A stretch of DNA of 58,113 nucleotides, from contig JAZUAS010000046.1 in NCBI GenBank assembly GCA_045638125.1, forward strand, positions 1-58,113, written 5' to 3'. Of this stretch, positions 954 through 22,779 are shown piece by piece. The translations under genes and the position numbers were made by a program. The stretch is from Eubacteriales bacterium. GTDB lineage: Bacteria; Bacillota; Clostridia; Oscillospirales; CAG-272. Each line of letters opens with the position of its first letter. Within the stretch, counting starts at the first letter, position 1. Below the pieces are notes generated by a model that worked only from the letters and a program-made list of their open reading frames with translations, was not told where the DNA came from and made no database searches.

Positions 954-2411
954 TTAATTCTTTCTTTCGGGATTTTCGTGCTTTTTTGCAAAATGCTCAC
1001 GGGTTATCTTGACTACAAGACCCGAAAGACCGATGAGTGCTATAAGGTTAGGCAGAGCCATCAGTGCATTGAAGCAGTCGGCTACGAGCCAAACGATCTT
1101 TATATCGGCAATAGCGCCCACGAAAACGAAAATAACGTAGATCACTCTGTAAATGATGATGGCGGTCTTTGAGTGATTTTTGAAGAGATATCCAACGCTT
1201 ACCTCTCCGTAATATGCCCAGCCGAGGATAGTAGAGAGAGCAAAGAATACTGTTGAAAGTGCAATTCCTATTCCACCGACGTAGGGAATAGCCTCGTTGA
1301 ATGCGGCACTACTGAGTGCAGCTCCGCTTACGGAGGGCTCAACGCCTGCGTTGAATGCAGTTGAATAAATTCCGGAAGTAAGGATGACAAGCGCGGACAT
1401 GGTGCAAATGATTATTGTTGTGATAAACACCTCGAACACGCCCCAGACACCCTGCTTGACGGGGTCTTCGGTGCTTGATGCAGAGTGAGCGATAGGAGCG
1501 CTACCAAGTCCCGCCTCGTTTGAAAATACGCCTCTGCCGACGCCGTAGCGCATAGCCGCAAGTATGCCGTATCCCGCAACGCCACCAAAAGCAGACTTAA
1601 AGTTGAACGCTTCCTTAAAGATAAGCGCAAATGAATCGGGTATCCTGTTTATGTTGAAAATAAGAGCAACGATACAAGCAATGATAAAGAAAACAGCCAT
1701 AACGGGAACTAACTTTTCGTTAACCGTAGCAATTCTTTTTACGCCGCCGATAATAACCACTCCCACGATTGCGGTGAGCACTATTCCGGTTATCCAGGGA
1801 GCGATATTGAGATTAGAAGCAAGAACACCGGAAATTGAATTGGACTGAGTTGCATTTCCCGTACCGATACAAGCGATCATAGCAAAAGCCGCAAACAGTA
1901 CCGCAAGCCATTTTATACCCAATCCGTTTTTGATATAGTACATAGGACCGCCGGTATAAGCGCCGGTTTCGTTCTTCTCTCTGAATTTAAGTGCGAGGAC
2001 GATCTCGGAATATTTTGTCACCATACCGAGAAGGGCACTCACCCACATCCAGAACACGGCACCCGGGCCACCGAGTACCAGCGCGGTCGCAACACCTGCA
2101 ATACTTCCGGTACCGATAGTGCCGGCAAGGGCCGTAGTTACCGCCTGGAAGGGGCTTACACTTCCTTTGTCCCTTTGATGCATATTTTTGTTAAATAGGC
2201 TGCCGATCGTATTTTTCATAACGTAGCCAAAACGTCTGAACTGGAAGAATCCGGTTCTGACGCTTAAGAAAATGCCTGCAGCAATAAGAAGGATCATCAT
2301 AGCGATGCTCAGAATATTGTCGTACGCGAAGCTGAGAACTCCATTCAAGCCATTCATCCCGCTTTCAGCAAAGCCGAGAGCGGCGTTTAAAGCATTTGTC
2401 ACGTTTTCCAT
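954..2411 (-). CDS. alsT: Alanine/glycine:cation (sodium) symporter, AGCS family
   Basis: 485-aa polytopic membrane protein. It has GGPGAVFWMW and other AGCS-like blocks, and its N-terminus and length are typical of AlsT-like carriers. Confidence 0.85.
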   Translation of the reverse strand: MENVTNALNAALGFAESGMNGLNGVLSFAYDNILSIAMMILLIAAGIFLSVRTGFFQFRRFGYVMKNTIGSLFNKNMHQRDKGSVSPFQAVTTALAGTIGTGSIAGVATALVLGGPGAVFWMWVSALLGMVTKYSEIVLALKFREKNETGAYTGGPMYYIKNGLGIKWLAVLFAAFAMIACIGTGNATQSNSISGVLASNLNIAPWITGIVLTAIVGVVIIGGVKRIATVNEKLVPVMAVFFIIACIVALIFNINRIPDSFALIFKEAFNFKSAFGGVAGYGILAAMRYGVGRGVFSNEAGLGSAPIAHSASSTEDPVKQGVWGVFEVFITTIIICTMSALVILTSGIYSTAFNAGVEPSVSGAALSSAAFNEAIPYVGGIGIALSTVFFALSTILGWAYYGEVSVGYLFKNHSKTAIIIYRVIYVIFVFVGAIADIKIVWLVADCFNALMALPNLIALIGLSGLVVKITREHFAKKHENPERKN

Positions 2412-2506
2412 TTAAACCTCTTAATAATGCTAATATTTGAGAAATCAAAGACTATCTCATTATACGAATACAATTATACATAATGGGAAGAAATATTTCA
2501 ATGAAA

Positions 2507-2539
2507 AATCGATAAAATAAGTTGAATAATCGATAAAAT
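2507..2539. repeat. 12-nt direct repeat AATCGATAAAAT x2, spaced 21 bp, upstream of the symporter gene
   Basis: Exact copies at 2507-2518 and 2528-2539, about 100-130 nt upstream of the ATG at 2411. Possible operator half-sites. Confidence 0.3.
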
Positions 2540-2578
2540 TATTTAAAATACTTCAAGAATACGATACAAGCGTGTGGG

Positions 2579-2608
2579 AAAAAGAAAAAAGGAAGCGGTG
2601 GCTTCCTT
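2579..2608 (-). terminator. Rho-independent terminator directly after tRNA-Leu
   Basis: AAGGAAGC-GGTG-GCTTCCTT hairpin (2589-2608). On the minus strand it is followed by TTTTTTCTTTTT. Confidence 0.7.
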
Positions 2609-2610
2609 TT

Positions 2611-2697
2611 TGGTGCGGGTAACAGGACTTGAACCTGCACGAAGGTAACCTCACTAGAACCTGAATCTAGCGCGTCTGCCAATTCCGCCATACCCGC
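2611..2697 (-). tRNA. tRNA-Leu (anticodon CAG), class II with long variable arm, CCA encoded
   Basis: The reverse complement is GCGGGTATGGCGGAATTGGCAGACGCGCTAGATTCAGGTTCTAGTGAGGTTACCTTCGTGCAGGTTCAAGTCCTGTTACCCGCACCA. It folds by hand into a cloverleaf with anticodon stem CTAGA/TCTAG, loop TTCAGGT and T-loop TTCAAGT. Confidence 0.9.
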
Positions 2698-2719
2698 ATA
2701 TTAAGTTGACATAGAGGGT

Positions 2720-2820
2720 AGGTAACCTCACTAGAACCTGAATCTAGCGCAGTCTGCTCACGTAAGGCTTTCGCCTTACTTGCCGAGGTGCTACGCACCA
2801 TCGCAATTCGCCATACCCGC
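2720..2820 (-). pseudogene. Degenerate partial copy of tRNA-Leu(CAG): 5' acceptor to variable arm, ~47-nt structured insertion in the D-loop, no T-arm or 3' acceptor
   Basis: 2720-2750 is identical to 2643-2673, and 2805-2827 matches 2682-2704 (including 7 nt upstream of the tRNA). The insertion contains the hairpins GGTGC-GTA-GCACC and GTAAGGC-GAAA-GCCTTAC. Confidence 0.6.
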
Positions 2821-2853
2821 ATATTAAAATTCGCCACTTTAGGCGACCCTAAC

Positions 2854-2882
2854 ATTATACTATATAAAACAAATTTTGTCAA
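2854..2882 (-). promoter_or_regulatory. Sigma-70-type promoter for the tRNA-Leu transcription unit
   Basis: On the minus strand: TTGACA (2882-2877), 17-nt spacer, TATAAT (2859-2854). Confidence 0.6.
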
Positions 2883-2978
2883 TAGGTTTTTGAAAAATAT
2901 TAAAACATTAAAAAACAGGAACAAACCATTGAAGTGTTTACGATTTTTTTAGCATGATCATTTAAATATATCGGGAAT

Positions 2979-3009
2979 TAAAAAAATCCCACCCCCAAAG
3001 GGGCGGGAT
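2979..3009 (-). terminator. Rho-independent terminator ending the SipW/TasA-like operon
   Basis: ATCCCACCCC-CAAA-GGGGCGGGAT hairpin (2986-3009). On the minus strand it is followed by a T7 run. Confidence 0.8.
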
Positions 3010-3025
3010 AGATGGAATTAAAAAA

Positions 3026-4255
3026 TTACTTAATTGTAATGCCGTTCAATCCGTTGTAGAAGAATGTAGTTTCACCATTGCCCAGAGCTGTGGCGTTCTC
3101 ATCAGTGATCAGAGTATCACCGTAGTAGCAGTTGATGAAGACGATGTCAGAGGTTTTGGAGGTGTCAAATTCATAGCCCTCCTCGAATACGCAGTTCTCA
3201 AATACGGATGCATTATAGGGACGGCAGAATGCATAACTATAGCTACCGGTACCCTGACCGAAGTTACAGTTAGTGAAGACAACTTCCTTGTGAACGTCGG
3301 AGTAGCTGGTCCAACCGTTCAGAGTGGAGTTGCTGATGTACACACCGTAATCCTTACTACCACCGTCGGAGTTGAAGGTGTAGCATACTTTGTCGATAAT
3401 AACGTTGTCGATGTATACGTCACCGGTTGCACTGCCCATAAAGATGCCGCGGAAAGTTCCGCTAACGGTTGCGTTTTTGATCGTACCATTCTTCATGTTA
3501 ACCGCGCAGTCCCAGGTGCCGTTAGCGTCGGACACGGTAATGGTGTTGCCGTTTCCGTTAAAAGTGGCACCGTTGTCAATCTGAATACCGGTAGCACCGT
3601 AGCCACTGTTTGCGGTGGTATCGTTAGCGCTGAAGTCAAGGTCTTCGTTTATGATGATGTCACCGCCGTTTTTGAGATCGTCAAGATCTGCAACTTCATC
3701 AATGAGAGTGTTTGTATCAACGTTGCCCTGGATAGCTTCAACTGTGTAAGAGAAGGAGCAAGAGGTAGACATATATTCGTTGCCTGCGCTCTCGGGAAGA
3801 GTAATAGATACGGGAACGATAATGTCAGCGGAGCCGGGAGCTGCAACAGCCCAAGCCGCTCTTACGGTATTGCCGTCATATTCGGTACCGTCGACGGTAA
3901 CCTCAAGACCGTTCCAAAGACCGTCGTCAGCTACCATAGCAATAATTGTTCTGTAGCTGATGCTTACGTTGCTAATGTTTTTGATTATGATATCAAAAGT
4001 AAGAACGTCACCGGGAACTATCTGTGTAAGAGTCACAGTGTTGTCTACAATTGTGTAAGCGGTTTCGGGAACGTTGTTGCCGAGGGTAGAGGAGATCTGA
4101 TCGTTTTTAACAGTTGCTATAACTTCTACGTTACCTGCGGTAACAGCTACGTTAACGGTGCTTTCGCTGGTGAAGAGTGCGAAGGATGCGCCTGCGATGA
4201 TACTGATGCAAAGCGCGATGGTCAAAATGGAGGACACTAAAATTTTGGTTTTCAT
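3026..4255 (-). CDS. Secreted protein: SipW-type signal peptide and TasA/camelysin-like N-domain fused to a right-handed beta-helix-like C-domain
   Basis: 409 aa. The N-terminus is MKTKILVSSILTIALCISIIAGASFALFTSESTVNVAVTAGNVEV (A-x-F-T...AG pattern of SipW-cognate signals). The first ~180 aa are near-identical to the neighbour at 4278-5981. The C-terminus is rich in short N/G/T-containing beta-helix-like repeats (NGNGNTITVSD, NGTIKNATVSG, VYIDNVIID). Confidence 0.65.
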   Translation of the reverse strand: MKTKILVSSILTIALCISIIAGASFALFTSESTVNVAVTAGNVEVIATVKNDQISSTLGNNVPETAYTIVDNTVTLTQIVPGDVLTFDIIIKNISNVSISYRTIIAMVADDGLWNGLEVTVDGTEYDGNTVRAAWAVAAPGSADIIVPVSITLPESAGNEYMSTSCSFSYTVEAIQGNVDTNTLIDEVADLDDLKNGGDIIINEDLDFSANDTTANSGYGATGIQIDNGATFNGNGNTITVSDANGTWDCAVNMKNGTIKNATVSGTFRGIFMGSATGDVYIDNVIIDKVCYTFNSDGGSKDYGVYISNSTLNGWTSYSDVHKEVVFTNCNFGQGTGSYSYAFCRPYNASVFENCVFEEGYEFDTSKTSDIVFINCYYGDTLITDENATALGNGETTFFYNGLNGITIK

Positions 4256-4277
4256 TTTTTATTCCTTTCTGAAAAAA

Positions 4278-5981
4278 TTATTTGTTATTATAAATAACAG
4301 TTACGCCGTCATGGACAGGATTTCCGTAAACACCTTGACCGCCTCCGTAGAGCTGGTCAAATTCGCAAAGGATGAAGTGATCTTCGCCCTCGTTATGAAC
4401 GTGATTGTCGTCTACTACTTCATTTCCGTTTGCATCAGTAGGATGGCCGTATCTGGGGTTAGAGTAAGCAGAGTTGCTGACACCTGCCTGAACTCTTACG
4501 TAAGGCCAGCTTTTTCCTGCAAATTCGCAATAGGTGTAGTCAGCCCAATCACCGTAGATTACGGTTACGTTTTCGCATGTAAGCTGAGGAGCTGCTGCAA
4601 TAGTGTTTCCGTCTTCGGTGGTGGTTGTTTTTCCTGTGTTACCGATAAGCATACCGCATCTACGGTAAGCGTACCACTGGTAAGAAGAGGTTACGTCATT
4701 GTAAGCATCAATTCTACAGGCAACGGTACAATCTTTAATAAGGATTTCAGCGGTTGAGCCGCATCCGCCGATAATACCGCCGGTGGAGTTGTCAAAGTCG
4801 CCCCACTGAGCTGCAAGAGTAGTGCTTTCATCGACGATACAGTTGATAAACGTCTGTGTACCGCTTGCCCAACCTACGATGCCGCCTGCATAGTACTGAT
4901 AGTCAGCTCCTCTGGAGTTGCTTATAGTAATGTTTTCAAAAGTCGTTTCACCATACGAGCAACCTGCTATAATACCAACGATAGCAGATTCTCCGGAAAT
5001 ATTAGCATTGTCAATGTTGAGATTCTTTATGTGAGCATCTTCAACAAGGCCGAACAGACCCATTCCGAGATCGCCGTAGTAGTATCCGTTGTTGAGAGCC
5101 CAAGTGTTCTGATTCAGATTATAAATGGTGTGCCCCTGACCGTCAAAAGTGCCTGTGAATGCCTGATCGTTTCTGTAAGATCCGATAGGCTCGAAGCATA
5201 TAGGATCACCATTTTCATCTTCTGCATAGAGATCTACGTCGCTATCGAGCAAGAAGGTCTTTCCTTCCATAGTTATGGGAAGAGAAATTTCAACGTCAGC
5301 AGGAATGGGAGCGGTTCCGTCTATAAGAGCTGCAAGACCGGCGATCTGTTCTGCGGAAGAAAGTGTATATTCTGTTGCATCAGGATCGTCAAAGAACCAA
5401 TCGGCATCTATTGTTCCGTCCCACTCGTCCGGAATAGGAGCGTTACCCTGGAGAGCCTCTACGCTGTATGCAATACTACAAGTCTTGCTCATATACTCGT
5501 TACCTGCGTTTTCGGGAAGCGTGATGACAACGGGAACTATAATGTCAGCGGAGCCGGGAGCAGCTGTAGCCCAATCTGCTTTCTTGGTTGCGCCGTCATA
5601 CGCGACTCCGTCAATGGTAACCTCGAGACCGCTCCAAAGACCGTCGTCTGCAACCTTTTTGATAATAGTTCTGTAGTTGACGGTTACGTTGCTATTGTTC
5701 TTGATGACGATATCAAAGGAAACTGTATCACCGGGTACGATCTTGTCGAGGGTGATGGTGTTGTCGGTATCGTTGAAAGTAACGGAGGTCTCGGAAAGAT
5801 TTGTGCCGAGAGTGGAGTCGAGAATGACGTTTTCAACCGTAGCGATAACTTCAACATTACCCGCTGTAACGGCTACGTTAACGGTGCTTTCGCTGGTGAA
5901 GAGCGCGAAGGATGCGCCCGCGATGATGCTGATGCAAAGCGCGATGGTTAAAAGGGAAGAGACTAAAATTTTGGTTTTCAT
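4278..5981 (-). CDS. Secreted protein: SipW-type signal peptide and TasA/camelysin-like N-domain fused to a GLUG-like repeat C-domain
   Basis: 567 aa with the same N-terminal module as 3026-4255. The C-terminus has FTGTFDGQGHTIYNLN followed by GLFGLVE, GIIAGCS, GGIVGWASG and GGIIGGCG repeats typical of GLUG-motif adhesin or protease-like domains. Confidence 0.6.
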   Translation of the reverse strand: MKTKILVSSLLTIALCISIIAGASFALFTSESTVNVAVTAGNVEVIATVENVILDSTLGTNLSETSVTFNDTDNTITLDKIVPGDTVSFDIVIKNNSNVTVNYRTIIKKVADDGLWSGLEVTIDGVAYDGATKKADWATAAPGSADIIVPVVITLPENAGNEYMSKTCSIAYSVEALQGNAPIPDEWDGTIDADWFFDDPDATEYTLSSAEQIAGLAALIDGTAPIPADVEISLPITMEGKTFLLDSDVDLYAEDENGDPICFEPIGSYRNDQAFTGTFDGQGHTIYNLNQNTWALNNGYYYGDLGMGLFGLVEDAHIKNLNIDNANISGESAIVGIIAGCSYGETTFENITISNSRGADYQYYAGGIVGWASGTQTFINCIVDESTTLAAQWGDFDNSTGGIIGGCGSTAEILIKDCTVACRIDAYNDVTSSYQWYAYRRCGMLIGNTGKTTTTEDGNTIAAAPQLTCENVTVIYGDWADYTYCEFAGKSWPYVRVQAGVSNSAYSNPRYGHPTDANGNEVVDDNHVHNEGEDHFILCEFDQLYGGGQGVYGNPVHDGVTVIYNNK

Positions 5982-6090
5982 TTGCGAGTTTTTCCTCTCT
6001 GAAATATGTGCTTATTTATTTAGACTTTACGGTGGACAAATTACGTCCTAAGTCTTAAGTATCGTAATCTGTGTTTCTGCTTTAATGCAG

Positions 6091-6747
6091 TCAATCTTGC
6101 ACAGTTTCTTGAACAGCCGTCACTACAAGGTCAAATACTGCGGATTGATTTTTTGCCAAATCGTTGTCGATTGGTATCTCACCCTCGGCAAGATTGGCAT
6201 TTGCCACAATATCGTCGATGAATTCAACCTTTACGCTAAAGCTTTGCGACGTTTCGGTAGCCTTCATGGTACCGGTAAAGATAGAGGCGCCGTCAACCAG
6301 TTCGCTCAGTTTCTTTGTGGTCGTTGTTCCGTCAAAATGTGTCACCGTTACTATCAACTGTTCGGTCAGATCATTGGAGTCACTGATCAAAGCTATTCCA
6401 ACGCTGTAATCGAACGCAACGTTTCCGTTGTTTCTAATTTCCATATCTGCATCGAAATAGCTACAGGGCGCAAACTTGACATTTTCCGACTTAATTCCGA
6501 ATACGTTTTCTTCAGTTGAGCCGGAGAAATCGTAGTCGTCTGTAATTGTTGTGACTTCGAGATTTCCTTCCTCGTTCAGAATACAGTATTCCAGATCGGT
6601 CCTTATCAAGCTGATCTCAAGCTCTCCTGAATCTAAATGATTGCTTGTGTTTATTACATTAGTAAACAAACCAAATGTAGCACCGGCAATAATAGCAATG
6701 CACAAGAGAATGATCGGAATAGCTATAAAAAGAGCCTTTTTGTTCAC
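6091..6747 (-). CDS. Stand-alone TasA/CalY (camelysin, M73)-like protein with SipW-type signal peptide
   Basis: GTG start at 6747 lies 7 nt after AGGAGG (the ORF-track start at 6798 lacks an RBS). Translation is VNKKALFIAIPIILLCIAIIAGATFGLFTNVINTSNHLDSGELEISL, about 218 aa, the size of TasA-fold fibre subunits. Confidence 0.6.
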   Translation of the reverse strand: MNKKALFIAIPIILLCIAIIAGATFGLFTNVINTSNHLDSGELEISLIRTDLEYCILNEEGNLEVTTITDDYDFSGSTEENVFGIKSENVKFAPCSYFDADMEIRNNGNVAFDYSVGIALISDSNDLTEQLIVTVTHFDGTTTTKKLSELVDGASIFTGTMKATETSQSFSVKVEFIDDIVANANLAEGEIPIDNDLAKNQSAVFDLVVTAVQETVQD

Positions 6748-6804
6748 TGTTTTTCCTCCTTTCACACGGAATATATATTGAAAAGTTGTGAAAATCACAA
6801 CCGA

Positions 6805-7611
6805 TCAATCGGTGTCAGTAGTGTCTTCTTCTGTAACAGTGTCTTCTTCTGTAATTGTGTCATCTTTAGGAGGTTCTTTGGATTTGACTTTTTCAAGCAT
6901 GGCGAGTTTGGAGCGAAGTTCTTTGATCTCATTGTCCTTTTTCTCGTCTTCTTCAAACTGACGTTTCTTTTTTTCGGCTTTGTACAATCCCACGATCTTT
7001 AATACCTCTAACAAAATAATGATGAGGCAGGGTACAATGACCACCAAAATAATTCCAAGCGTTGTTTTCAGTAAGCTTACGATGAATCCAAGTATATATG
7101 ACTGCCCCGTGACCTTGCCGATCACATAGTTTTTGTTGTTGGGAGTAGAGGTGTTTATAGACTGATAAAGCTGATCTGAGTTAGAGCTTTTATTGTCTCC
7201 GGCAAGCTCTATTGAATAACCGCCGACATTGTTCCTTTCTATATCGGTTATTCGGTGAGTGATAGTCACTTGATGAGTATAAACGTATTTGAAGGTGAGA
7301 ACGTCGCCAACCTTTAAGTCAGCATACCATTCATCAGCTTCCTGCGGGTCTTCGGGAACAAGTTCAATAAAGACCATTGACCTCACGGGAATACTTTTGA
7401 TATTGTAATCGGAAACGTCGGTCAACTCACATTTCTCCATTGAATCCGACGTGATGACACGCATTTGATATCCGCCAATCTCCACTGTTCCGTCGATATC
7501 TCTTTTGGAAAACGCAGTAATCAATACGGCTATAATGCAAAGAGATAGAAAGAAAAACAACAGTACGTTGAGGGCAATATTGCCGATCTTTTTAAGTTTG
7601 ACTTTCTCCAT
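6805..7611 (-). CDS. sipW: Signal peptidase I, SipW (ER/archaeal) type, with C-terminal TM segment and long charged tail
   Basis: VITSDSMEK aligns to SipW VLSGSMEP (catalytic Ser). VTITHRITDIE aligns to VTHRIVDI (catalytic His). LAGDNKSSN aligns to KGDNN. These are followed by a C-terminal TM and a K/E-rich tail ending in TEEDTV/TEEDTT repeats. Confidence 0.85.
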   Translation of the reverse strand: MEKVKLKKIGNIALNVLLFFFLSLCIIAVLITAFSKRDIDGTVEIGGYQMRVITSDSMEKCELTDVSDYNIKSIPVRSMVFIELVPEDPQEADEWYADLKVGDVLTFKYVYTHQVTITHRITDIERNNVGGYSIELAGDNKSSNSDQLYQSINTSTPNNKNYVIGKVTGQSYILGFIVSLLKTTLGIILVVIVPCLIIILLEVLKIVGLYKAEKKKRQFEEDEKKDNEIKELRSKLAMLEKVKSKEPPKDDTITEEDTVTEEDTTDTD

Positions 7612-7637
7612 AAATTACTACCTACTTAAAATCTGTT

Positions 7638-7898
7638 CTATGATTTGTTTTTTGATTTAAAGAAATGAACGGTCAGATCTTTGCTGACAGAGCTTTTCTT
7701 TGCTTTCTGTCTGTCGCTGATAATACCGTGTATTTTCTTGTTTTGATTCTCAAGTTGATTTTCACATGCCCAGCAGATCATTCTCCCCTCAGAGACAACA
7801 GCTCCGCACGAAACACAAAAATCTGTATTATCAATAAATGTCATGTGCTTGTTGTTTAAAACTTGTAATACATCCATACTTTTCTTTGTCTTTTTCAT
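7638..7898 (-). CDS. Small zinc-ribbon protein (hypothetical), first gene of the operon
   Basis: 86 aa with CVSCG...16 residues...CWAC (a four-Cys ribbon) and a basic C-terminus. No family recognised. Confidence 0.45.
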   Translation of the reverse strand: MKKTKKSMDVLQVLNNKHMTFIDNTDFCVSCGAVVSEGRMICWACENQLENQNKKIHGIISDRQKAKKSSVSKDLTVHFFKSKNKS

Positions 7899-7976
7899 TG
7901 GCGTCTAATTGAGTGATTGAAACACGATTAATAATTGTCTTACGAACTCAACGCTATTTTCGTGCGCTTAATAATT

Positions 7977-8008
7977 AAAAGCAACATAACGAGAGTTATG
8001 TTGCTTTT
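7977..8008. repeat. Palindromic hairpin sharing a 19-nt core with the inverton repeats; bidirectional terminator-like
   Basis: AAAA-GCAACATAAC-GAGA-GTTATGTTGC-TTTT. Positions 7983-8001 are identical to 8016-8034. Confidence 0.6.
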
Positions 8009-8012
8009 AAAC

Positions 8013-8038
8013 AATAACATAACGAGAGTTATGTGATA
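8013..8038. repeat. Inverted repeat, left arm (IR-L) of candidate invertible element
   Basis: AATAACATAACGAGAGTTATGTGATA is the exact reverse complement of 8253-8278. It contains an internal 7-bp dyad ACATAAC/GTTATGT around the asymmetric spacer GAGA. Confidence 0.9.
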
Positions 8039-8094
8039 AACGGTGAAGTTTATTTTTCAAATCACTAAAATTAAAGGAAAAACAACAACACGGC

Positions 8095-8143
8095 AAAAAG
8101 CCTTTCGTCAATTTTTTAGAAAAATTATACGAAAGGCGTTTTT
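8095..8143. terminator. Terminator-like hairpin inside the invertible segment (insulator upstream of the promoter)
   Basis: AAAAA-GCCTTTCGT (8100-8108), 20-nt loop, ACGAAAGGC (8129-8137), GTTTTT. It has an A-run on one side and a T-run on the other. The large loop lowers confidence. Confidence 0.4.
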
Positions 8144-8189
8144 GGCGCGCAATAATTTATGTAATATGTTATGAAATTTTCGGAAAGAC

Positions 8190-8218
8190 TTGATTTTTTA
8201 ATTCGTTTATGGTATAAT
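8190..8218 (+). promoter_or_regulatory. Near-consensus sigma-70 promoter with extended -10 inside the invertible segment
   Basis: TTGATT (8190-8195), 17-nt spacer, TGg-TATAAT (8210-8218). In the assembled orientation it points into the 3' end of the recombinase gene (antisense). Confidence 0.65.
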
Positions 8219-8252
8219 TGATCTCACATCTTGATAAATATCAAATGACTAA

Positions 8253-8278
8253 TATCACATAACTCTCGTTATGTTATT
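8253..8278. repeat. Inverted repeat, right arm (IR-R) of candidate invertible element
   Basis: TATCACATAACTCTCGTTATGTTATT is the exact reverse complement of 8013-8038. Its spacer reads TCTC. Confidence 0.9.
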
Positions 8279-8313
8279 TTCATTCTCGGTGTATTCGCAT
8301 CGGGATTTTTTGT

Positions 8314-9156
8314 TTATATAATCAAACGCATGTGCTCCATTTTGCGCTTATGTTCCGCGCCAGTTGTAACAATATAAATACGCGTTGTGTTGATATTTGA
8401 ATGTCCGAGAATATCCGCAAGCTTGGCAATGTCCTTTTCAATTCCGTAAAAGGTGCGAGCAAACAGATGGCGCAGATTGTGAGGAAACACCTTACTCGAT
8501 GCAACCTGCGCCTGCTCACACAAGGATTTCATATCCTTCCATACATTGTTACGACTAATGGGTTTGCCATTTTTTGTAATAAATATCGCCCCTGAGGCTA
8601 TTTTCTGCTCCTTTACATAACGGAGTAGTTTTTTCTTTAGATTGGCAACAATAAAGATCTTTCGATTTTTGCCCTTGCATTTAACGACTGCCTCCCCCCT
8701 ACTTAGCGCTTCCACTGTTATATATTGGAGTTCACTCACGCGAATACCCGTTCCGCAGATCGTCTGAATGATAAGATTAAGCCGTTGATTGTGATTTTTG
8801 TTCGCTGCTTCAAGCAGACGGATATATTCTTCTCGCGTCAATTCCTTTTCTTCGGAGCAGTAAGCTTGCCTTTGTATGCGGAACTGCTTCACGCACAGAT
8901 CATGCCAACCGCAGAAACGCAGAAATGCGTTCAGTGCGGCAATCATAGAATTTGCACTGGTCACAGCGTAGGAATTTCCCAATTTTTGCTTATACTCCAT
9001 CACACTTTGTTTACAGACTTCATCCGTGCTGATAAAATTTGCAAAGCATCTTACGTCACGCATATATTTTTCAACCGTTGCTTGGCTCCGTTCTTCTTCT
9101 CTTAAATGAATTTCAAATTCTTGCATTTTGGAAAGATCTATAATCCTTTTATTCAT
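8314..9156 (-). CDS. Tyrosine site-specific recombinase (XerC/D / phage-integrase family), candidate invertase
   Basis: 280 aa. It has an N-terminal SAM-like core-binding domain (ATVEKYMRDVRCFANF) and a catalytic domain with GIRVSEL (Arg I), HNLRH (H-x-x-R) and LGHSNINTTRIY (His/Trp position and Tyr nucleophile). Confidence 0.85.
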   Translation of the reverse strand: MNKRIIDLSKMQEFEIHLREEERSQATVEKYMRDVRCFANFISTDEVCKQSVMEYKQKLGNSYAVTSANSMIAALNAFLRFCGWHDLCVKQFRIQRQAYCSEEKELTREEYIRLLEAANKNHNQRLNLIIQTICGTGIRVSELQYITVEALSRGEAVVKCKGKNRKIFIVANLKKKLLRYVKEQKIASGAIFITKNGKPISRNNVWKDMKSLCEQAQVASSKVFPHNLRHLFARTFYGIEKDIAKLADILGHSNINTTRIYIVTTGAEHKRKMEHMRLII

Positions 9157-9354: not shown

Positions 9355-12300
9355 TTATTCAGCTGTAATTGCGTCGCCCGTTTTGGGGTCGATCAACGTT
9401 GACTCTGTACGTCCTGTGGAAAGAGTAACCTTGCTCATATCGCTCTCAAGCTCGTAAATATCATCGAGATTATTGGAGAATCCGATGTAAGCGATGTCGA
9501 AATAGACGTCTTCATCGCACGCAAAGTTGAAGAAGTCAAAGCGGAAATATTTCGCCACATATACTCCATCCTCGTTCTTTGCGTAGGTGTCAAGCCCTCT
9601 CGCCTCAAGATCGATAATAAGTATCTGCCATTCGCCGTCGGCAATTACCTGAGTGCCTGCGCCCTCGCAGTTATAGCAGTTTGCGGAATTGCTCGCCGCG
9701 CCGCCGTCGGTATTAAGGTAGAACTGCCAATAGTAGAACATCTTGGGTATGTCAGCGGGAATACGATATTTCAAAACGAGATATCTGCCTGTTTCCTTGA
9801 AATTGTTACGGAAAAGCTCGATTCTTGTTTCTTCCTCCACAGAACCTGCCAAGCGGATGTAATCGCGCTCCTCGGAGAGGGTTACCGAGCCGAAGTGTAC
9901 CTTGCCACGTCCTATCATATCGTCAAGCTCTGCGGCGTCCATGTGGAAATTAAGCTCCTCGTTGTTGAGAGTGCTTCTGTACTCAAAGTGATAAGATTTT
10001 TCAAAGAGTGCAACGGTATTGAGGTCTTTGTTGTATTCGAGAATATCGTCGAGGGAATCGTGGTAACCGATGTAAGAAACGTCAATGTAAGCGTTGGGAT
10101 TGCCTGACTCGTTGAATACGTCGAAGCGGAGATATTTAGCGTAATAGTTTCCGTCCTCGCTCTTCTTGAAGCTATCGGTCTTGCCGTATGCCTCGAGGTC
10201 TATAACGATGGTGTGCCACTGTCCGTCCGAAAGAACGGCTGCATCTGCGATATAATCCTGACCAACTATGAGAATGTTGCCGTCAGCATCGTAAACCGTG
10301 TTTTCGGTGGAGGTGTAGAACTGCCAGTAGGTTATCATGGAGTCGAGACCCTGAGGAACGCGGAACTTAAACACAAAATATCTGCCTGCAAGAATACCTT
10401 CCTCGTCCTCGAACACGACCATGGTTGACTCCGCGTTCGTTCCGTTTCTGTTAACACGAACGAAGTTTACACCGTCCTCGGACATAATCGAGTATTCTCC
10501 GAATCTGCTTGCCGCGTATGTAAAGGAGGCGTTGAGATCCTGGGGATCAAACCAAGCGTTAAAGGGATCGGGCTCTTCTATTATCTCGGGCCAGCCCTCA
10601 AAATCCTCAGCCGCGGTCACGCGGAACTTTCTCGGGGCACCGTTATCCATTGTTGTGATGAATGAGTAAGAGAATGTGCCGTCGCCGTCGTAGTAGACAC
10701 CGTATCCGTCGTACTGATGGCCGTATCCGAAGTTATCGGGAGTGCTGAGGGAAGAGATGTCTACAAGCTTCCATTCGCCGTCAACGTATTCTTCGATAAC
10801 GGGTGCAGTCAGCTTTTCAAAGCCATAAATTCTAACAGCTACGTTGTTGTGACCGCCCGAAAGAGTAAATTCTGCACTCTTGCCGTTGGTAGTCTTGACC
10901 TTGGGGAGGAATACGCTATCCATGATCGTGCAATCCTTATCAGCGGTTGCCTTCAAGGGATCAAGCAGGGTGTTTTCTCTGACTCTGCGAACGTTTTTGT
11001 CGGGCTCTACCTCATCGTATTCCTCGTAGCACTGCCACGGCATGATGATCGCGTTGATTGTGAAAGTGTCGCCTTTCTTAAGCTCTACCGCATCAAGGTC
11101 AAGGGAGAGAGAAAGCTCGGCAAAGTTGTTGATGAGGAGGAAAGAGGGATTGATCTTGTCGCCGCCGATCGTGAACTCGGCATTGTAGATCATAAAGGAG
11201 AGATTGTTATATCCTCTTGCCGCATCTCCGCAGTTTTCCATATCAAAGAAAGAGAAGTAGGGGCATTCGTCACCGAGAACGTATTCAAAGCTCTGGTCAC
11301 GGTCGGCTGCCTTTACAACCTTGGACTCGTTGTTAGTGTCAAGATAGCCAACCTTGGTGTAGAGTCCGCTGTAGTCAAGAGATTTTACCGAGTAGAAGGA
11401 GAAATCGTGTCCGAAATCGGTGAAGCTGATGTCTTCAAGAACCTCATACTTCATTTCGTAGTATGCACGGTTTTCATCGGTCTGTGGGAACTCCATATGA
11501 TTGTACGAAACCTTGATCTTACCGTCGTCGGAGATGAAATCCATGGTAACGTCGGCATAGATAGGACCGTAAGAGCCAATCCTATCGAGGATGTTCTCGG
11601 TTGCCGAATAGTTTCCGTCAGCATCGGTGTACTGCAAGAAGGAGTGAACGCCTGCGTAGGTACGCTGACAAACGTTAAACTGAACGGGACCCGACATAGG
11701 ACGGTGATCGGGGAGCATATTGAGTGTCTCGCCAAATCTGCAGAAATAGTAGGGAATAATACAGTTACTCTCGTGAACTCCGGTTGAAAGATGGTAGTAA
11801 GGAGCGTAATACTGGATCCAGGAGATCTGCTTCAAGGGATATTTACCCCAGTTGTAGTAAAGATTGAGTATGGAGTAGGTGTTGTCGGTGTCAGAGTTGA
11901 CTATCATAGGAAGGATAGTTTCGCTATACGGAGCGTCACCCTCATAGAACATGGGAGAGTCGCCGCCCTCACCGTAGTTCTTGCCGACTTCAATAGGTAT
12001 AGGGAGCATCATCTGATTTCCGTCAAGAAGCGCGGCGGTTTCAAGCGCGCCACCGCCTGTATAACTGGTCAGAATGTATATCTTGCGGTCGTTTGCGCCG
12101 TCACCCTTAATGTTCAAGGTGATGCTGAAATGTCTGTTAGGATAGAACAAATACGGACGAGAAAATCCTGCGTCGCCGTCGATGCTAAAGGTATAGCAGC
12201 CTCGGAGAGCATTGTAGCCTATGAACCCTCCACCGGGAGATGTCTTGGTATCAATAATGAAGTTTTCTTCACCGAGAGGATTGACCTCAAGCTCTGCCTC

Positions 12301-13797
12301 GACTATAAAGCGATCAAAGGTGTGGTAACGGTCGGTGTAGATTCGGTGACCCATATAGAAGTCGTTTGCGTTATTGGTGCCCTTGGGAGAGGTGCGGAGA
12401 GTCTGACCGTCGGGAGCCTTGGACTGTTCTATCTTATAGACACCGTCTTCAAGGGTTACGCGGATCGTTCCGCTCAAGCCGTCGTAGGGAAGAATGTAAC
12501 CGTAGATACCTACGCCCTTGATGTCAAATCCGACGTACTGAACGGTGTTCCAAGCAATACCCTTAAGGTCGTAGTGCAGACCGTTTCTATCCTTTATAAC
12601 GAAGCCACCTACACGGCTTTCTGGAATTTCGGTGATCATACCCACTGCCTGAACGTTTTCAACGTCGCGGAGTGTGGTTACTTGTAGAGTTTGATGAAGC
12701 TTGTCGGAGTATGTGTTGAACATACGGTTGAGGTAAACTTCCTTAGTGGGGGTAGCGTTAAGGTCTGCTTTAAGCACGCGGAGATCCTTGATAGCAAAGG
12801 TAGCGTCGATAGCGCCCTGCATAGGCAGAAAGTCAAAACGAAGTCCCGTTACTTGTCCAAAGTATCCGCTAATTTGGTAAAGCGGTATGTAATATGTATG
12901 GAATTCTCCGTCGGGGATTATTTCAACACCTAACGACTGAGCACTTGAAAAACCGGTGTTAGCTCCTGCCGTGATATATACGACAAAGCTTGAGGAGAAG
13001 TTTGAGTCGGCTTTCATGGTGAGCGATAGAACGTTATACTCGGATGCCGAGAAATTGACTTTCTTATAGGATATCCAGGGGTCTTGGTTGTTGGTGGCTT
13101 TGATAGCAATAGCGCCGTCCTCAACTCCGATATATTCAGTCATGTTGTATCTGAGGATGTTGTTTGCACCGAAGTTGAGCTTTTTACCCTTTTCGTCTTC
13201 AAATACGTAACCGTTACCGAAGTTTAAGCCCTCGATGCGGTTTTCGTAAAAGTAGTAGCCCATACGGAAGATATTTGCGATGCCGTCCGCTTGGGAATCA
13301 GACGCATAGTAGGTAGTGCCATCGGTCATACGGACGAAAACGTCCATAGTATTTTCTATGTAGTTGGCACCTGCCTTGTTGTCGATCGAGGTGATCAGCT
13401 TGGTGTTTTGAAGATCGCATGTCACGCCAACGTTCTTGTTTTCAAAGAAATAAGAGGATCTTGTGGGATCAGTAAAGTATGCGTTGACTCCGTTTGCGAT
13501 GCGGTCTGCATACTCGATATACTCGGCATTTTCGCCCTCGAGGAGGGAAGGATAGGTCTCCTCAACGTATCCGTCGTCGGGATCAGAGGTGCTTTCCTCG
13601 GACTCGTCGCCGCTTTCTGTGCTTGAAGACTCTTGATTATTGGAAGATTCTTCGTTGCCTGACGAACTTCCGCTCTCGGATGAGCTTTCGGTCTCTGTCT
13701 CGGAGTCGCCGAAAAGCCACGCGCAGGACGAAAGAACACTCGCGAACATTATCAAAGCGATAAGTAGTGATAAGATTCGTATGCATTTGATTTTCAT
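9355..13797 (-). CDS. Giant surface lipoprotein, unrecognised family (paralog 1), with two C-terminal ~150-aa repeat modules
   Basis: 1480 aa. The signal peptide has a lipobox-like LSSC (MKIKCIRILSLLIALIMFASVLSSC), followed by an S/E/D-rich linker, then a large conserved body. It ends with two modules of pattern GRYLV(L/F)K(Y/F)R(I/V)P..YWQFY...DG(E/Q)W..(L/I)(I/V)IDLEA......Y(V/Y)AKY(F/L)RFD(F/V)FN. Confidence 0.75.
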   Translation of the reverse strand: MKIKCIRILSLLIALIMFASVLSSCAWLFGDSETETESSSESGSSSGNEESSNNQESSSTESGDESEESTSDPDDGYVEETYPSLLEGENAEYIEYADRIANGVNAYFTDPTRSSYFFENKNVGVTCDLQNTKLITSIDNKAGANYIENTMDVFVRMTDGTTYYASDSQADGIANIFRMGYYFYENRIEGLNFGNGYVFEDEKGKKLNFGANNILRYNMTEYIGVEDGAIAIKATNNQDPWISYKKVNFSASEYNVLSLTMKADSNFSSSFVVYITAGANTGFSSAQSLGVEIIPDGEFHTYYIPLYQISGYFGQVTGLRFDFLPMQGAIDATFAIKDLRVLKADLNATPTKEVYLNRMFNTYSDKLHQTLQVTTLRDVENVQAVGMITEIPESRVGGFVIKDRNGLHYDLKGIAWNTVQYVGFDIKGVGIYGYILPYDGLSGTIRVTLEDGVYKIEQSKAPDGQTLRTSPKGTNNANDFYMGHRIYTDRYHTFDRFIVEAELEVNPLGEENFIIDTKTSPGGGFIGYNALRGCYTFSIDGDAGFSRPYLFYPNRHFSITLNIKGDGANDRKIYILTSYTGGGALETAALLDGNQMMLPIPIEVGKNYGEGGDSPMFYEGDAPYSETILPMIVNSDTDNTYSILNLYYNWGKYPLKQISWIQYYAPYYHLSTGVHESNCIIPYYFCRFGETLNMLPDHRPMSGPVQFNVCQRTYAGVHSFLQYTDADGNYSATENILDRIGSYGPIYADVTMDFISDDGKIKVSYNHMEFPQTDENRAYYEMKYEVLEDISFTDFGHDFSFYSVKSLDYSGLYTKVGYLDTNNESKVVKAADRDQSFEYVLGDECPYFSFFDMENCGDAARGYNNLSFMIYNAEFTIGGDKINPSFLLINNFAELSLSLDLDAVELKKGDTFTINAIIMPWQCYEEYDEVEPDKNVRRVRENTLLDPLKATADKDCTIMDSVFLPKVKTTNGKSAEFTLSGGHNNVAVRIYGFEKLTAPVIEEYVDGEWKLVDISSLSTPDNFGYGHQYDGYGVYYDGDGTFSYSFITTMDNGAPRKFRVTAAEDFEGWPEIIEEPDPFNAWFDPQDLNASFTYAASRFGEYSIMSEDGVNFVRVNRNGTNAESTMVVFEDEEGILAGRYFVFKFRVPQGLDSMITYWQFYTSTENTVYDADGNILIVGQDYIADAAVLSDGQWHTIVIDLEAYGKTDSFKKSEDGNYYAKYLRFDVFNESGNPNAYIDVSYIGYHDSLDDILEYNKDLNTVALFEKSYHFEYRSTLNNEELNFHMDAAELDDMIGRGKVHFGSVTLSEERDYIRLAGSVEEETRIELFRNNFKETGRYLVLKYRIPADIPKMFYYWQFYLNTDGGAASNSANCYNCEGAGTQVIADGEWQILIIDLEARGLDTYAKNEDGVYVAKYFRFDFFNFACDEDVYFDIAYIGFSNNLDDIYELESDMSKVTLSTGRTESTLIDPKTGDAITAE

Positions 13798-19229: not shown

Positions 19230-19268
19230 AAACTGAAATCCTTTCAAAATTGTTTTTGCTATGAATCA

Positions 19269-22777: not shown

Positions 22778-22779
22778 AT

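What the first reader, a model, noticed from the sequence alone, without database searches (positions are those of the whole stretch)
3026..7898. SipW-dependent operon in which TasA/camelysin-like N-domains are fused to different large C-terminal payload domains
The operon encodes a Zn-ribbon protein, a clear SipW-type signal peptidase, one ~218-aa stand-alone TasA-like protein, and two larger proteins. The first ~180 residues of the two larger proteins are almost identical: the same SipW-cognate-type signal (IIAGASFALFTSESTVNVAVTAGNVEV) and the same TasA-like domain. Their C-termini differ completely. One is a beta-helix-like domain and the other a GLUG-repeat domain of the kind seen in adhesins and IgA-protease-like proteins. 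In Bacillus, SipW processes TasA, which polymerises by donor-strand exchange into biofilm fibres. Here the same fold appears to be used as a polymerisation or anchoring module for displaying enzymatic or adhesive domains (major subunit plus decorated subunits). I do not recognise this modular arrangement as a described system.
Basis: partly seen in the sequence, partly recalled or inferred. Interest (0 to 1): 0.7.

Follow-up and report, generated by a model that had tools for sequence, protein, structure and literature searches.

The report
Phase-variable TasA-like fibre operon with payloads
A gut Clostridia operon encodes a dedicated signal peptidase and three TasA-type fibre subunits, two carrying beta-helix adhesin-like domains, and sits behind a flippable promoter that is OFF in this sequence; the arrangement is widespread but unnamed.

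Summary
Five co-directional genes on the minus strand (7898-3026) encode a 4-Cys zinc-ribbon protein, a divergent SipW/archaeal-type signal peptidase, a 218-aa stand-alone subunit, and 567-aa and 409-aa proteins. The N-domains of the two large proteins are 71% identical (98% over the first 49 residues), not "almost identical". Their C-termini are unrelated.

A profile of the N-domain family hits TasA (E 9e-7) and archaeal AbpX in the PDB. 49 of 53 relatives match Pfam Peptidase_M73. Fold search alone was unspecific.

The 567-aa payload is a GLUG/IgA1-protease-N-like beta-helix, about 74% conserved across hundreds of proteins whose N-domains are only about 26% identical. N-domains resemble their operon neighbours, not their payload orthologues. 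The same payload also occurs on SLH- and dockerin-anchored proteins. This supports a display-module reading. Polymerisation itself is untested.

A tyrosine recombinase gene (9156-8314) and perfect 26-nt inverted repeats (8253-8278 and 8013-8038) flank a 214-nt promoter segment. The promoter points away from the operon here (OFF). Related contigs show both orientations.

Verdict: a new variant of a known kind.

The parts
8314..9156 (-). Tyrosine recombinase (280 aa), the putative invertase of the adjacent switch
   Evidence: Pfam Phage_integrase 96 bits plus Phage_int_SAM_1. Homologues at 49-99% identity sit in the same place in 8 related loci, each followed by the same kind of inverted repeat.
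8284..8305 (+). Terminator-like hairpin with its T-run on the + strand. It would stop transcripts from the OFF-oriented promoter before they run antisense into the recombinase gene.
   Evidence: 9-pair stem, TTTTTTGTTT tail.
8253..8278 (.). Recombinase-proximal inverted-repeat arm (core ACATAAC-GAGAG-TTATGT)
   Evidence: 26 nt, 100% complementary to 8013-8038.
8039..8252 (.). 214-nt invertible segment. It carries a promoter-like site at 8190-8218 (+ strand; TTGATT-17-TATAAT with a TG extension; points away from the operon, i.e. OFF) and a conserved two-way hairpin at 8095-8142.
   Evidence: Homologous segments occur in both orientations in related contigs.
8013..8038 (.). Operon-proximal inverted-repeat arm
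7978..8001 (.). Third copy of the recombinase site, direct with respect to 8013-8038. It arises from a 33-nt duplication that is absent from the 99%-identical contig L004.
7638..7898 (-). 86-aa 4-Cys zinc-ribbon protein with a basic tail and no signal peptide; role unknown (possibly regulatory)
   Evidence: Only weak, sub-threshold HMM hits. Conserved in L004 and L005; a 71-aa gene occupies the same position in L001.
6805..7611 (-). SipW/archaeal-type signal peptidase I (268 aa) with N- and C-terminal transmembrane segments, an insertion between the Ser and His boxes, and an acidic repeat tail
   Evidence: SipW model E 7e-14, below the cut-off. Motifs S55-D-S57-M, T-H119-R and G-D139-N are aligned with homologues.
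6091..6747 (-). Stand-alone TasA-like subunit (218 aa, GTG start), the putative shaft subunit
   Evidence: HMM of the N-domain family, E 2.4e-24.
5442..5981 (-). 567-aa protein, residues 1-180: SipW-cognate-type signal (predicted cleavage ASFA|LFTS), a mature N-terminal strand and a TasA-like beta-sandwich
4278..5432 (-). 567-aa protein, residues 184-567: conserved GLUG / IgA1-protease-N-like beta-helix payload with an invariant Cys/His/Asp-rich C-terminal part
3722..4255 (-). 409-aa protein, residues 1-178: the same signal and TasA-like N-domain
3026..3706 (-). 409-aa protein, residues 184-409: right-handed beta-helix payload of the 'pectate-lyase-like adhesive domain' kind
2986..3009 (-). 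Intrinsic terminator ending the operon

Best explanation
This is a phase-variable operon for a TasA-superfamily extracellular fibre with interchangeable heads.

Switch. The adjacent tyrosine recombinase flips a 214-nt promoter cassette between 26-nt inverted repeats. In this assembly the promoter faces the recombinase gene, so the operon is OFF. After inversion the promoter would lie about 170 nt upstream of the zinc-ribbon gene and drive all five genes.

Assembly. The three secreted proteins share a SipW-cognate-type signal. The operon's own SipW-type peptidase is inferred to cut it after Ala26 (ASFA|LF, with Phe at P2' as in TasA). This would free an N-terminal strand that is unstructured in the monomer model. 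By analogy with TasA, AbpA and AbpX, that strand is inferred to insert into the beta-sandwich of a neighbouring subunit, with no chaperone needed. The 218-aa protein would form the shaft.

Display. The 567-aa and 409-aa proteins would join through the same N-domain and display their beta-helix payloads, most likely as adhesins. Whether they sit at the tip or along the shaft is unresolved.

Shown: gene order, homologies, domain boundaries, the switch anatomy, and both switch orientations in nature. Inferred: cleavage by this peptidase, co-polymerisation, and the adhesive function.
For: N-domain and peptidase:
- TasA-superfamily membership of the N-domain comes from profile searches.
- The peptidase best matches SipW models and keeps the catalytic motifs.
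- A26, L27 and F28 are invariant across 53 relatives.
- The mature N-terminal strand (residues 27-44) is more conserved than the sandwich core: 58% against 35% mean pairwise identity.
- That strand has low confidence in both AF2 monomer models, while the sandwich is confident.
- Stand-alone relatives end where the payloads begin.

Modularity:
- More than 815 proteins carry the 567-type payload behind varied N-domains. Mean pairwise identity is 74% for the payload and 26% for the N-domain.
- In 50 genome loci, 66 of 97 N-domain ORFs have extensions of at least 150 aa. Up to 6 N-domain genes occur per locus.
- Fused N-domains are 50% identical within a locus and 32% identical between loci.
- The same payload is found with SLH, dockerin and MBG domains. 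Relatives of the 409-aa payload match an 'adhesive domain' Pfam family.

Switch:
- The inverted repeats are perfect and the segment holds a promoter-like site.
- All 9 loci that have the recombinase have the same ACATAAY-N4-6-RTTATGT repeat pair, 214-360 nt apart.
- Homologous segments occur in both orientations. L076 is complete, with the promoter facing a TasA-like gene. L070 and L068 share that orientation. The window, L004, L057, L011 and L006 have the opposite one. L041 and L043 are also mutually inverted.
Against: - No experiment or multimer model shows polymerisation or co-assembly.
- The window proteins score below the curated cut-offs for PF12389 (13-20 bits against 22.5), TIGR04088 (17-18 against 19) and the SipW models.
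- Foldseek with the N-domain model returns generic CBM/jelly-roll hits, and TasA is not in the top 50. TasA ranks only 27th with the full-length model.
- The stand-alone subunit is only 29% identical to the fused N-domains, so their compatibility is not obvious.
- No cell-wall anchor or TapA-like protein was recognised.
- Both switch orientations were seen between related strains or species, not within one population's reads. The near-identical contig L004 has the same orientation as the window.
- The payload's function is unknown. Its invariant Cys/His/Asp-rich segment could indicate an enzyme rather than an adhesin.
Confidence: 0.6

Rival explanations
1. The N-domain is not a polymerising unit. 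It is a SipW-dependent export and carbohydrate- or wall-binding (CBM-like) module. The 567-aa and 409-aa proteins would be monomeric secreted or wall-associated adhesins or enzymes. The stand-alone protein would be a separate matrix protein.
For: Foldseek top hits for the N-domain are carbohydrate-binding modules and a glycan-binding protein (1gui, 7kwb). No anchor or chaperone gene was found. Polymerisation was not tested.
Confidence: 0.2
2. The fusions are strictly terminal subunits, one per fibre (a tip adhesin like FimH, or a TapA-like nucleator or base), rather than decorations along the shaft. The two fusions would give alternative tips.
For: Predicted two-domain tip proteins occur in archaeal Tafi and AbpX loci. 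A bulky C-terminal payload directly after the last strand may block further subunit addition. Several alternative payload genes occur per locus.
Against: Both fusions keep the donor strand and a complete sandwich, so nothing in the sequence prevents internal incorporation. No stoichiometric data exist.
Confidence: 0.3
3. The recombinase and repeats are remnants of an integrated mobile element (att or dif-like sites), not an expression switch.
For: The recombinase belongs to the phage-integrase family. A tRNA-Leu gene and a truncated tRNA-like copy lie just beyond the other end of the operon. The module sits in different genomic neighbourhoods in the window and in L001.
Against: The repeats are inverted, only 214-360 nt apart, and lie between the recombinase and the first operon gene in 9 of 9 loci. 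They enclose a conserved promoter-like site plus a hairpin. The enclosed segment is found in both orientations with unchanged flanks. An integrating element would leave direct repeats at its two ends.
Confidence: 0.05
4. The proteins are enzymes named by their weak Pfam hits: camelysin-type (M73) or IgA1-protease-type (M26) metallopeptidases.
For: Weak hits to Peptidase_M73 and Peptidase_M26_N. IgA1 protease is the top Foldseek hit.
Against: There is no HExxH motif in either protein (read from the sequence). The M26 match covers only the non-catalytic N-terminal beta-helix region (profile positions 195-248 of the N-region model). PF12389 includes TasA, a fibre subunit (PMC9245690).
Confidence: 0.03

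Closest known systems
Bacillus subtilis tapA-sipW-tasA (and B. cereus sipW-tasA-calY) biofilm fibre operons
   Same: A dedicated SipW-type signal peptidase is encoded with its substrates. The subunits belong to the Peptidase_M73/TasA superfamily. The signal has Phe at P2'. An N-terminal strand is available for donor-strand exchange.
   Different: Here two subunits carry large beta-helix payloads (226 and 384 aa) directly after the TasA-like domain. No TapA homologue was found. A zinc-ribbon gene leads the operon. Control is by an invertible promoter, whereas the Bacillus operon is known to be under SinR-type repression (my own knowledge; not checked here). The peptidase has an insertion and an acidic tail.
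Clostridium perfringens sipW-bsaABCRSD operon (PMC7395162)
   Same: A clostridial operon led by sipW, with several secreted proteins. The main one (BsaA) forms SipW-dependent extracellular polymers.
   Different: BsaA is about 23 kDa and no payload fusions are described. Regulation is by temperature and a two-component system, not by DNA inversion. Homology to the proteins here was not tested.
Archaeal Tafi and AbpX/ABP loci with predicted minor and tip subunits (PMC12337348; bioRxiv 10.64898/2026.01.04.697558)
   Same: TasA-superfamily donor-strand filaments encoded with a dedicated signal peptidase I, minor subunits and two-domain 'tip' proteins whose outer domain varies between lineages.
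   Different: Those are mostly archaeal, the tip roles are themselves predictions, and the accessory DUF5305 protein and membrane anchors have no counterpart here. No conserved GLUG-type payload family and no recombinase switch are reported in the passages I read.
Two-domain tip adhesins of chaperone-usher pili (e.g. FimH), and fimS phase variation in E. coli
   Same: The logic is the same: a pilin-like assembly domain plus a binding domain, with an invertible promoter flipped by tyrosine recombinases encoded next to it.
   Different: The protein families, the cell envelope and the assembly machinery (chaperone and usher) are unrelated. This comparison rests on my own knowledge, not on a test run here.
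Streptococcus pneumoniae IgA1 protease N-terminal GLUG beta-helix region (PDB 7uvl; Pfam PF05342/PF07581)
   Same: It is the best structural and HMM neighbour of the 567-aa payload. The payload shows the repeated G-G-[IV]-[IV]-G-type beta-helix rungs.
   Different: There is no M26 catalytic domain or HExxH motif. The similarity is weak (Foldseek E 3.8e-4, TM 0.24; Pfam below the cut-off). The payload has its own invariant Cys/His/Asp-rich C-terminal part.

Membership tests
TasA/camelysin superfamily (Pfam PF12389 Peptidase_M73) | Sequence match to the family model or to solved TasA | tested here: met
   The window proteins alone score 13.4-19.6 bits against a cut-off of 22.5. However, 49 of 53 relatives at 27-75% identity match (best E 9.7e-13). 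The family profile hits TasA 8aur at E 9.2e-7 and 5of1 at E 1.2e-6 as the top PDB sequences.
TasA/camelysin superfamily (Pfam PF12389 Peptidase_M73) | Jelly-roll beta-sandwich fold specifically similar to TasA | tested here: inconclusive
   The AF2 N-domain model (pLDDT 89) is a beta-sandwich. Foldseek gives generic CBM/jelly-roll hits without TasA in the top 50. The TasA fibre ranks 27th (probability 0.99, E 0.022) with the full-length model.
TasA/camelysin superfamily (Pfam PF12389 Peptidase_M73) | Polymerisation by donor-strand exchange | not testable with these tools
   Only monomer prediction was available. Indirect support: the conserved mature N-terminal strand has low confidence in the monomer models.
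SipW-cognate signal peptide (NCBIfam TIGR04088) | Score at or above the curated cut-off of 19 bits | tested here: not met
   The scores are 17.2 and 17.8 bits for the two fusions, and there is no hit for the stand-alone protein. The A-x-A|x-F pattern with Phe at P2' is present and invariant in relatives (P2' Phe in TasA per PMC10269814).
SipW / archaeal-ER-type signal peptidase I (NF046067, TIGR02228) | Model match plus the catalytic Ser and His (and Asp) boxes | tested here: inconclusive
   These are the best hits, at 51.8 bits (cut-off 190) and 34.6 bits (cut-off 51.85). SDSM, THR and GDN are present and conserved in close homologues. Activity and substrate dependence were not tested.
GLUG / Peptidase_M26 N-terminal beta-helix region (PF07581, PF05342) | Match to the Pfam models at the gathering score | tested here: not met
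   The window protein scores 17.6 bits against a cut-off of 27.7. 32 of 62 relatives match M26_N and 6 of 62 match Glug, all weakly. The structural neighbour is IgA1 protease at E 3.8e-4. It is GLUG-like, not a certified member.
Right-handed beta-helix / Pectate_lyase_5 'adhesive domain' (PF13229, PF20585) | Match to the Pfam models at the gathering score | tested here: inconclusive
   The window 409-aa protein has no hit. Relatives of its payload at 43-78% identity pass: P0184 Beta_helix 27.4 bits (cut-off 25.9), P0185 25.6 bits and P0264 24.5 bits for Pectate_lyase_5 (cut-off 24.3).
Invertible promoter switch (inverton) with a dedicated tyrosine recombinase | Inverted repeats flanking a promoter, next to a recombinase gene | tested here: met
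   The arrangement is conserved in 9 of 9 loci that have the recombinase.
Invertible promoter switch (inverton) with a dedicated tyrosine recombinase | Both orientations exist in nature | tested here: met
   Homologous segments occur in opposite orientation relative to identical flanks. L076, L070 and L068 differ from the window, L057, L011 and L006. L041 differs from L043. This is seen between related strains or species, not yet within one population's reads.
Invertible promoter switch (inverton) with a dedicated tyrosine recombinase | Orientation controls transcription of the operon | not testable with these tools
   This needs RNA data or reporter constructs.

The most novel reading that the evidence does not exclude
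Gut Clostridia carry a widespread, undescribed class of chaperone-free 'modular display fibres'. A fast-evolving, locus-specific TasA-like assembly domain acts as a universal socket. Through it, conserved surface modules are mounted on a fibre and switched ON or OFF by a dedicated inverton. One such module is a roughly 380-aa GLUG-type beta-helix with an invariant Cys/His/Asp site that may be a new enzyme or host-ligand binder. The system would be a Gram-positive functional counterpart of chaperone-usher tip adhesins.
Probability: 0.35. Interest if true: 0.8.

Novelty: new variant of a known kind. Interest (0 to 1): 0.66.

Why it matters
TasA-type fibres are known mainly as plain matrix scaffolds in Bacillus and, recently, in archaea. 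Here the same assembly domain appears to serve as a mounting module for conserved adhesin-like heads in hundreds of uncultured gut and rumen Clostridia, under ON/OFF control by DNA inversion.

If confirmed, this would:
- give function to a large set of 'hypothetical proteins' (more than 815 clusters for one payload alone);
- identify a new surface-adhesion organelle in abundant but uncultured Oscillospiraceae and Christensenellaceae;
- add a Firmicutes example of inverton-controlled surface variation relevant to host colonisation;
- offer a natural template for engineering TasA fibres that display cargo.

The highly conserved payload with invariant Cys, His and Asp residues is itself an uncharacterised domain worth a structure.

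Tried and rejected
- Direct sequence searches of the three proteins against the PDB found nothing useful. A profile of the full-length family (A1) also found nothing. Only the N-domain profile worked.
- Foldseek with the N-domain-only model gave unspecific jelly-roll/CBM hits. I do not use it as evidence for or against TasA homology.
- The exact 567-aa protein is not on record in the assembly index. Its 99% relative P0059 gave contigs L004 and L005, both with the same switch orientation or truncated. I therefore have no same-strain ON example.
- Rfam scans found no riboswitch or other RNA family in the leader or elsewhere in 2400-8400, apart from tRNA-Leu.
- I first looked for a promoter reading towards the operon in the present orientation. 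None passed the scan. This led to the OFF interpretation.
- A metallopeptidase function (M73 or M26) is rejected because there is no HExxH motif and only non-catalytic regions match.
- A mobile-element reading of the recombinase is rejected because the repeats are inverted, close together and enclose a promoter.
- Literature searches for inverton together with TasA, SipW or camelysin returned no paper containing 'inverton'.
- A multimer (donor-strand) prediction could not be run.

Full report
OBSERVATION

The region 7898-3026 holds five head-to-tail ORFs on the minus strand:
- an 86-aa protein with CxxC-11-CxxC;
- a 268-aa membrane protein;
- a 235-aa ORF whose real start is probably the GTG at 6747 (218 aa, as called in the 99%-identical contigs L004 and L005);
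- a 567-aa protein;
- a 409-aa protein.

Gaps between genes are 22-109 nt. A 10-pair GC-rich hairpin with a T-run follows the last gene (3009-2986).

The two large proteins are 71% identical over their first 194 residues (E 5e-86) and 98% identical over residues 1-49. Beyond about residue 183 they share nothing. The stand-alone protein is a distant paralogue of these N-domains: 29% identity, E 2e-8, and hhalign probability 98.7%. The description is therefore correct, except that 'almost identical' applies only to the signal peptide and the first mature strand.

WHAT THE PARTS ARE

Direct HMM scans of the window proteins are weak:
- Peptidase_M73 scores 13-20 bits against a cut-off of 22.5.
- The SipW-cognate signal model TIGR04088 scores 17.2 and 17.8 against 19.
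- The SipW model scores 51.8 bits against 190, and the archaeal SPase I model 34.6 against 51.85.

Family-level evidence is much stronger. A search with the N-domain found 58 relatives. Nearly all are stand-alone proteins of 185-240 aa, and most carry a precomputed PF12389 hit. In their alignment the stand-alone proteins end at the ..VEAxQGN strand, exactly where the payloads begin in the window proteins. 49 of 53 members match PF12389 (best E 9.7e-13). A profile of this alignment finds TasA (8aur E 9.2e-7; 5of1 E 1.2e-6) and then archaeal AbpX (E 8e-4) as the best PDB sequences.

The peptidase keeps S-D-S57-M, T-H119-R and G-D139-N, aligned with close homologues from other loci.

PAYLOADS

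The C-terminal 384 residues of the 567-aa protein have more than 815 relatives at 67-77% identity. Almost all are proteins of 550-660 aa whose N-termini are TasA-like, and all that carry a name are called 'hypothetical protein'. Among 62 aligned members, 44 match PF12389, 32 match Peptidase_M26_N weakly, and 6 match Glug.

The AF2 model (pLDDT 80) is a beta-helix whose best PDB neighbour is pneumococcal IgA1 protease (E 3.8e-4). There is no HExxH motif and no catalytic domain. An invariant Cys/His/Asp-rich stretch (residues about 482-539) is modelled with low confidence.

In a library of 1.84 billion representative proteins the payload has 452 relatives at E<=1e-30. They lie at varying positions in proteins of up to 5,076 aa. 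Some of these carry SLH, dockerin, MBG or Beta_helix domains. In locus L041 the payload sits behind an ordinary signal peptide in a 993-aa protein that ends in a dockerin-like repeat, judged from its sequence and not HMM-tested. It is thus an autonomous surface module mounted on different anchoring devices.

The 409-aa protein's payload is a right-handed beta-helix. Its relatives pass the Pfam Beta_helix and 'pectate-lyase-like adhesive domain' thresholds and occur behind many different N-termini. One of them is a PF12389 + SipW-cognate protein from Pradoshia eiseniae.

MODULARITY

Across the 62-member family, mean pairwise identity is 26% in the N-domain and 74% in the payload.

A scan of one genome per species found 50 loci, all from uncultured Clostridia (Oscillospiraceae, Christensenellaceae, Eubacteriales, Coprobacillus and others; mostly animal gut). 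In these loci 97 ORFs carry the N-domain, and 66 of them have extensions of at least 150 aa. Loci hold up to six N-domain genes, and many have a SipW homologue upstream.

Fused N-domains with different payloads in the same locus are on average 50% identical (up to 98%). Between loci the figure is 32%, even though the between-locus pairs often share the payload. The N-domain therefore follows the locus and the payload does not. This is what one expects if the N-domain must fit its neighbours.

Within the N-domain family, the mature N-terminal strand (residues 27-44) is better conserved than the sandwich core, at 58% against 35%.

THE SWITCH (not in the original finding)

Upstream of the operon lies a 280-aa tyrosine recombinase gene (9156-8314; Pfam Phage_integrase 96 bits). 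Between it and the zinc-ribbon gene there are perfect 26-nt inverted repeats (8253-8278 and 8013-8038), 214 nt apart, plus a third site copy at 7978-8001.

The only good promoter-like site in this region is inside the segment: 8190-8218 on the + strand, TTGATT-17-TATAAT with a TG extension. It points away from the operon. A terminator-like hairpin with a + strand T-run (8284-8305) lies in its path. A conserved two-way hairpin (8095-8142) sits in the middle of the segment.

All nine loci with a recombinase homologue have the same ACATAAY-N4-6-RTTATGT inverted pair right after the recombinase stop codon, 214-360 nt apart.

A metagenome scan with the 18-nt core returned related contigs in both states. 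L057 has the window's orientation. L076 shows recombinase, repeat, hairpin, then TTGATT-17-TATAAT facing downstream, then repeat, ribosome-binding site and a TasA-like gene. The partial contigs L070 and L068 share L076's orientation. L076's segment aligns with L057's only after reverse-complementing (score 83 against 21). The same holds for L070 (110 against 56) and for L041 against L043 (48 against 18).

I conclude that this is an invertible promoter and that the window shows the OFF state. The near-identical contig L004 has the same orientation and lacks the 33-nt duplication. Inversion within one strain is therefore still unproven.

MECHANISM AND RIVALS

Best reading (confidence 0.6): this is a phase-variable, SipW-processed, donor-strand fibre of the TasA superfamily. 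The 218-aa protein forms the shaft. The two fusions join through the shared N-domain and display beta-helix, probably adhesive, heads.

Rivals:
- The N-domain is a monomeric export or binding module (0.2).
- The fusions are strictly terminal subunits (0.3; this is a sub-variant of the best reading).
- The recombinase and repeats are a mobile-element remnant (0.05).
- The proteins are metallopeptidases (0.03).

COMPARISON WITH KNOWN SYSTEMS AND NOVELTY

The closest systems are Bacillus tapA-sipW-tasA, C. perfringens sipW-bsaABC, and archaeal Tafi and AbpX loci, where two-domain tip proteins have been predicted. Invertons with adjacent tyrosine recombinases are well known in gut bacteria. No retrieved paper combined 'inverton' with TasA, SipW or camelysin.

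I could not find the following described together: a conserved GLUG-type payload family on hypervariable TasA-like domains, multi-payload operons, and control by inversion. I rate the finding as a new variant of a known kind, with interest about 0.66.

Noticed in passing
window 2700-2830 (minus strand), next to tRNA-Leu(CAG) at 2611-2697: There is a truncated tRNA-Leu-like copy: a 5' acceptor/D-arm, a ~55-nt insert, and the anticodon-arm sequence shared with the intact gene, but no T-arm. ARAGORN and Rfam call only the intact tRNA. It may be a scar of an old recombination or integration event.
   Followed up: no
window 6805-6870 (3' end of the signal-peptidase gene); L005 1100-1330: The peptidase ends in acidic T-E-E-D-T-V-type repeats. 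Their copy number differs between near-identical strains: L005 has many more copies and an assembly gap there.
   Followed up: no
window 7978-8038; L057 74-122; L068; L011 2748-2800: The number and side of recombinase-site copies vary. The window has two direct copies on the operon side. L057 has two on the recombinase side. L068 has three direct copies. L011 has 53-nt arms with two cores each. Multiple sites could allow more than two switch states.
   Followed up: partly
567-aa protein residues ~482-539 (window ~4365-4538): The most conserved stretch of the payload has low AF2 confidence. It contains invariant C485, R496, D516, D525, H527, H529 and H535, and the motif DDNHVHNEGEDH. This would fit a metal- or ligand-dependent site.
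   Followed up: no
L041 4400-10808: The same recombinase and inverton type, here with a perfect TTGACA-17-TATAAT facing downstream, precedes a different gene set: a 185-aa ORF that looks like a small TetR-type regulator, a 675-aa surface protein with SLH- and Fn3-like sequence, and a 993-aa protein with an ordinary signal + the GLUG-type payload + a dockerin-like C-terminal repeat. These labels are read from the sequences and were not HMM-tested. The switch family is thus not tied to TasA-like operons.
   Followed up: partly
window 20483-22807 (minus): A family-8 polysaccharide lyase is encoded here (Pfam Lyase_8_N, Lyase_8 and Lyase_8_C). In my knowledge this family includes hyaluronate and chondroitin lyases, which would suggest an organism that degrades host glycans.
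   Followed up: no
window 9355-13797 and 14049-19247 (minus): Two very large proteins (1480 and 1732 aa) have no Pfam hit at E<=1e-4. The first has a lipoprotein-like N-terminus (..LLSSCAW) and Ser/Glu-rich linker.
   Followed up: no
window 28841-55805 (plus): A long co-directional gene cluster includes a DegT-type aminotransferase, a sugar-transfer ATP-grasp, another ATP-grasp ligase, and a PEP mutase fused to nucleotidyltransferase domains. This looks like a phosphonate-decorated glycan cluster. It contains a low-GC stretch at 32-34 kb (GC 0.36).
   Followed up: no
L052 (contig binned as Alistipes sp.): One payload-family locus is assigned to a Bacteroidota MAG, while all the others are Clostridia. 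This is either mis-binning or horizontal transfer.
   Followed up: no
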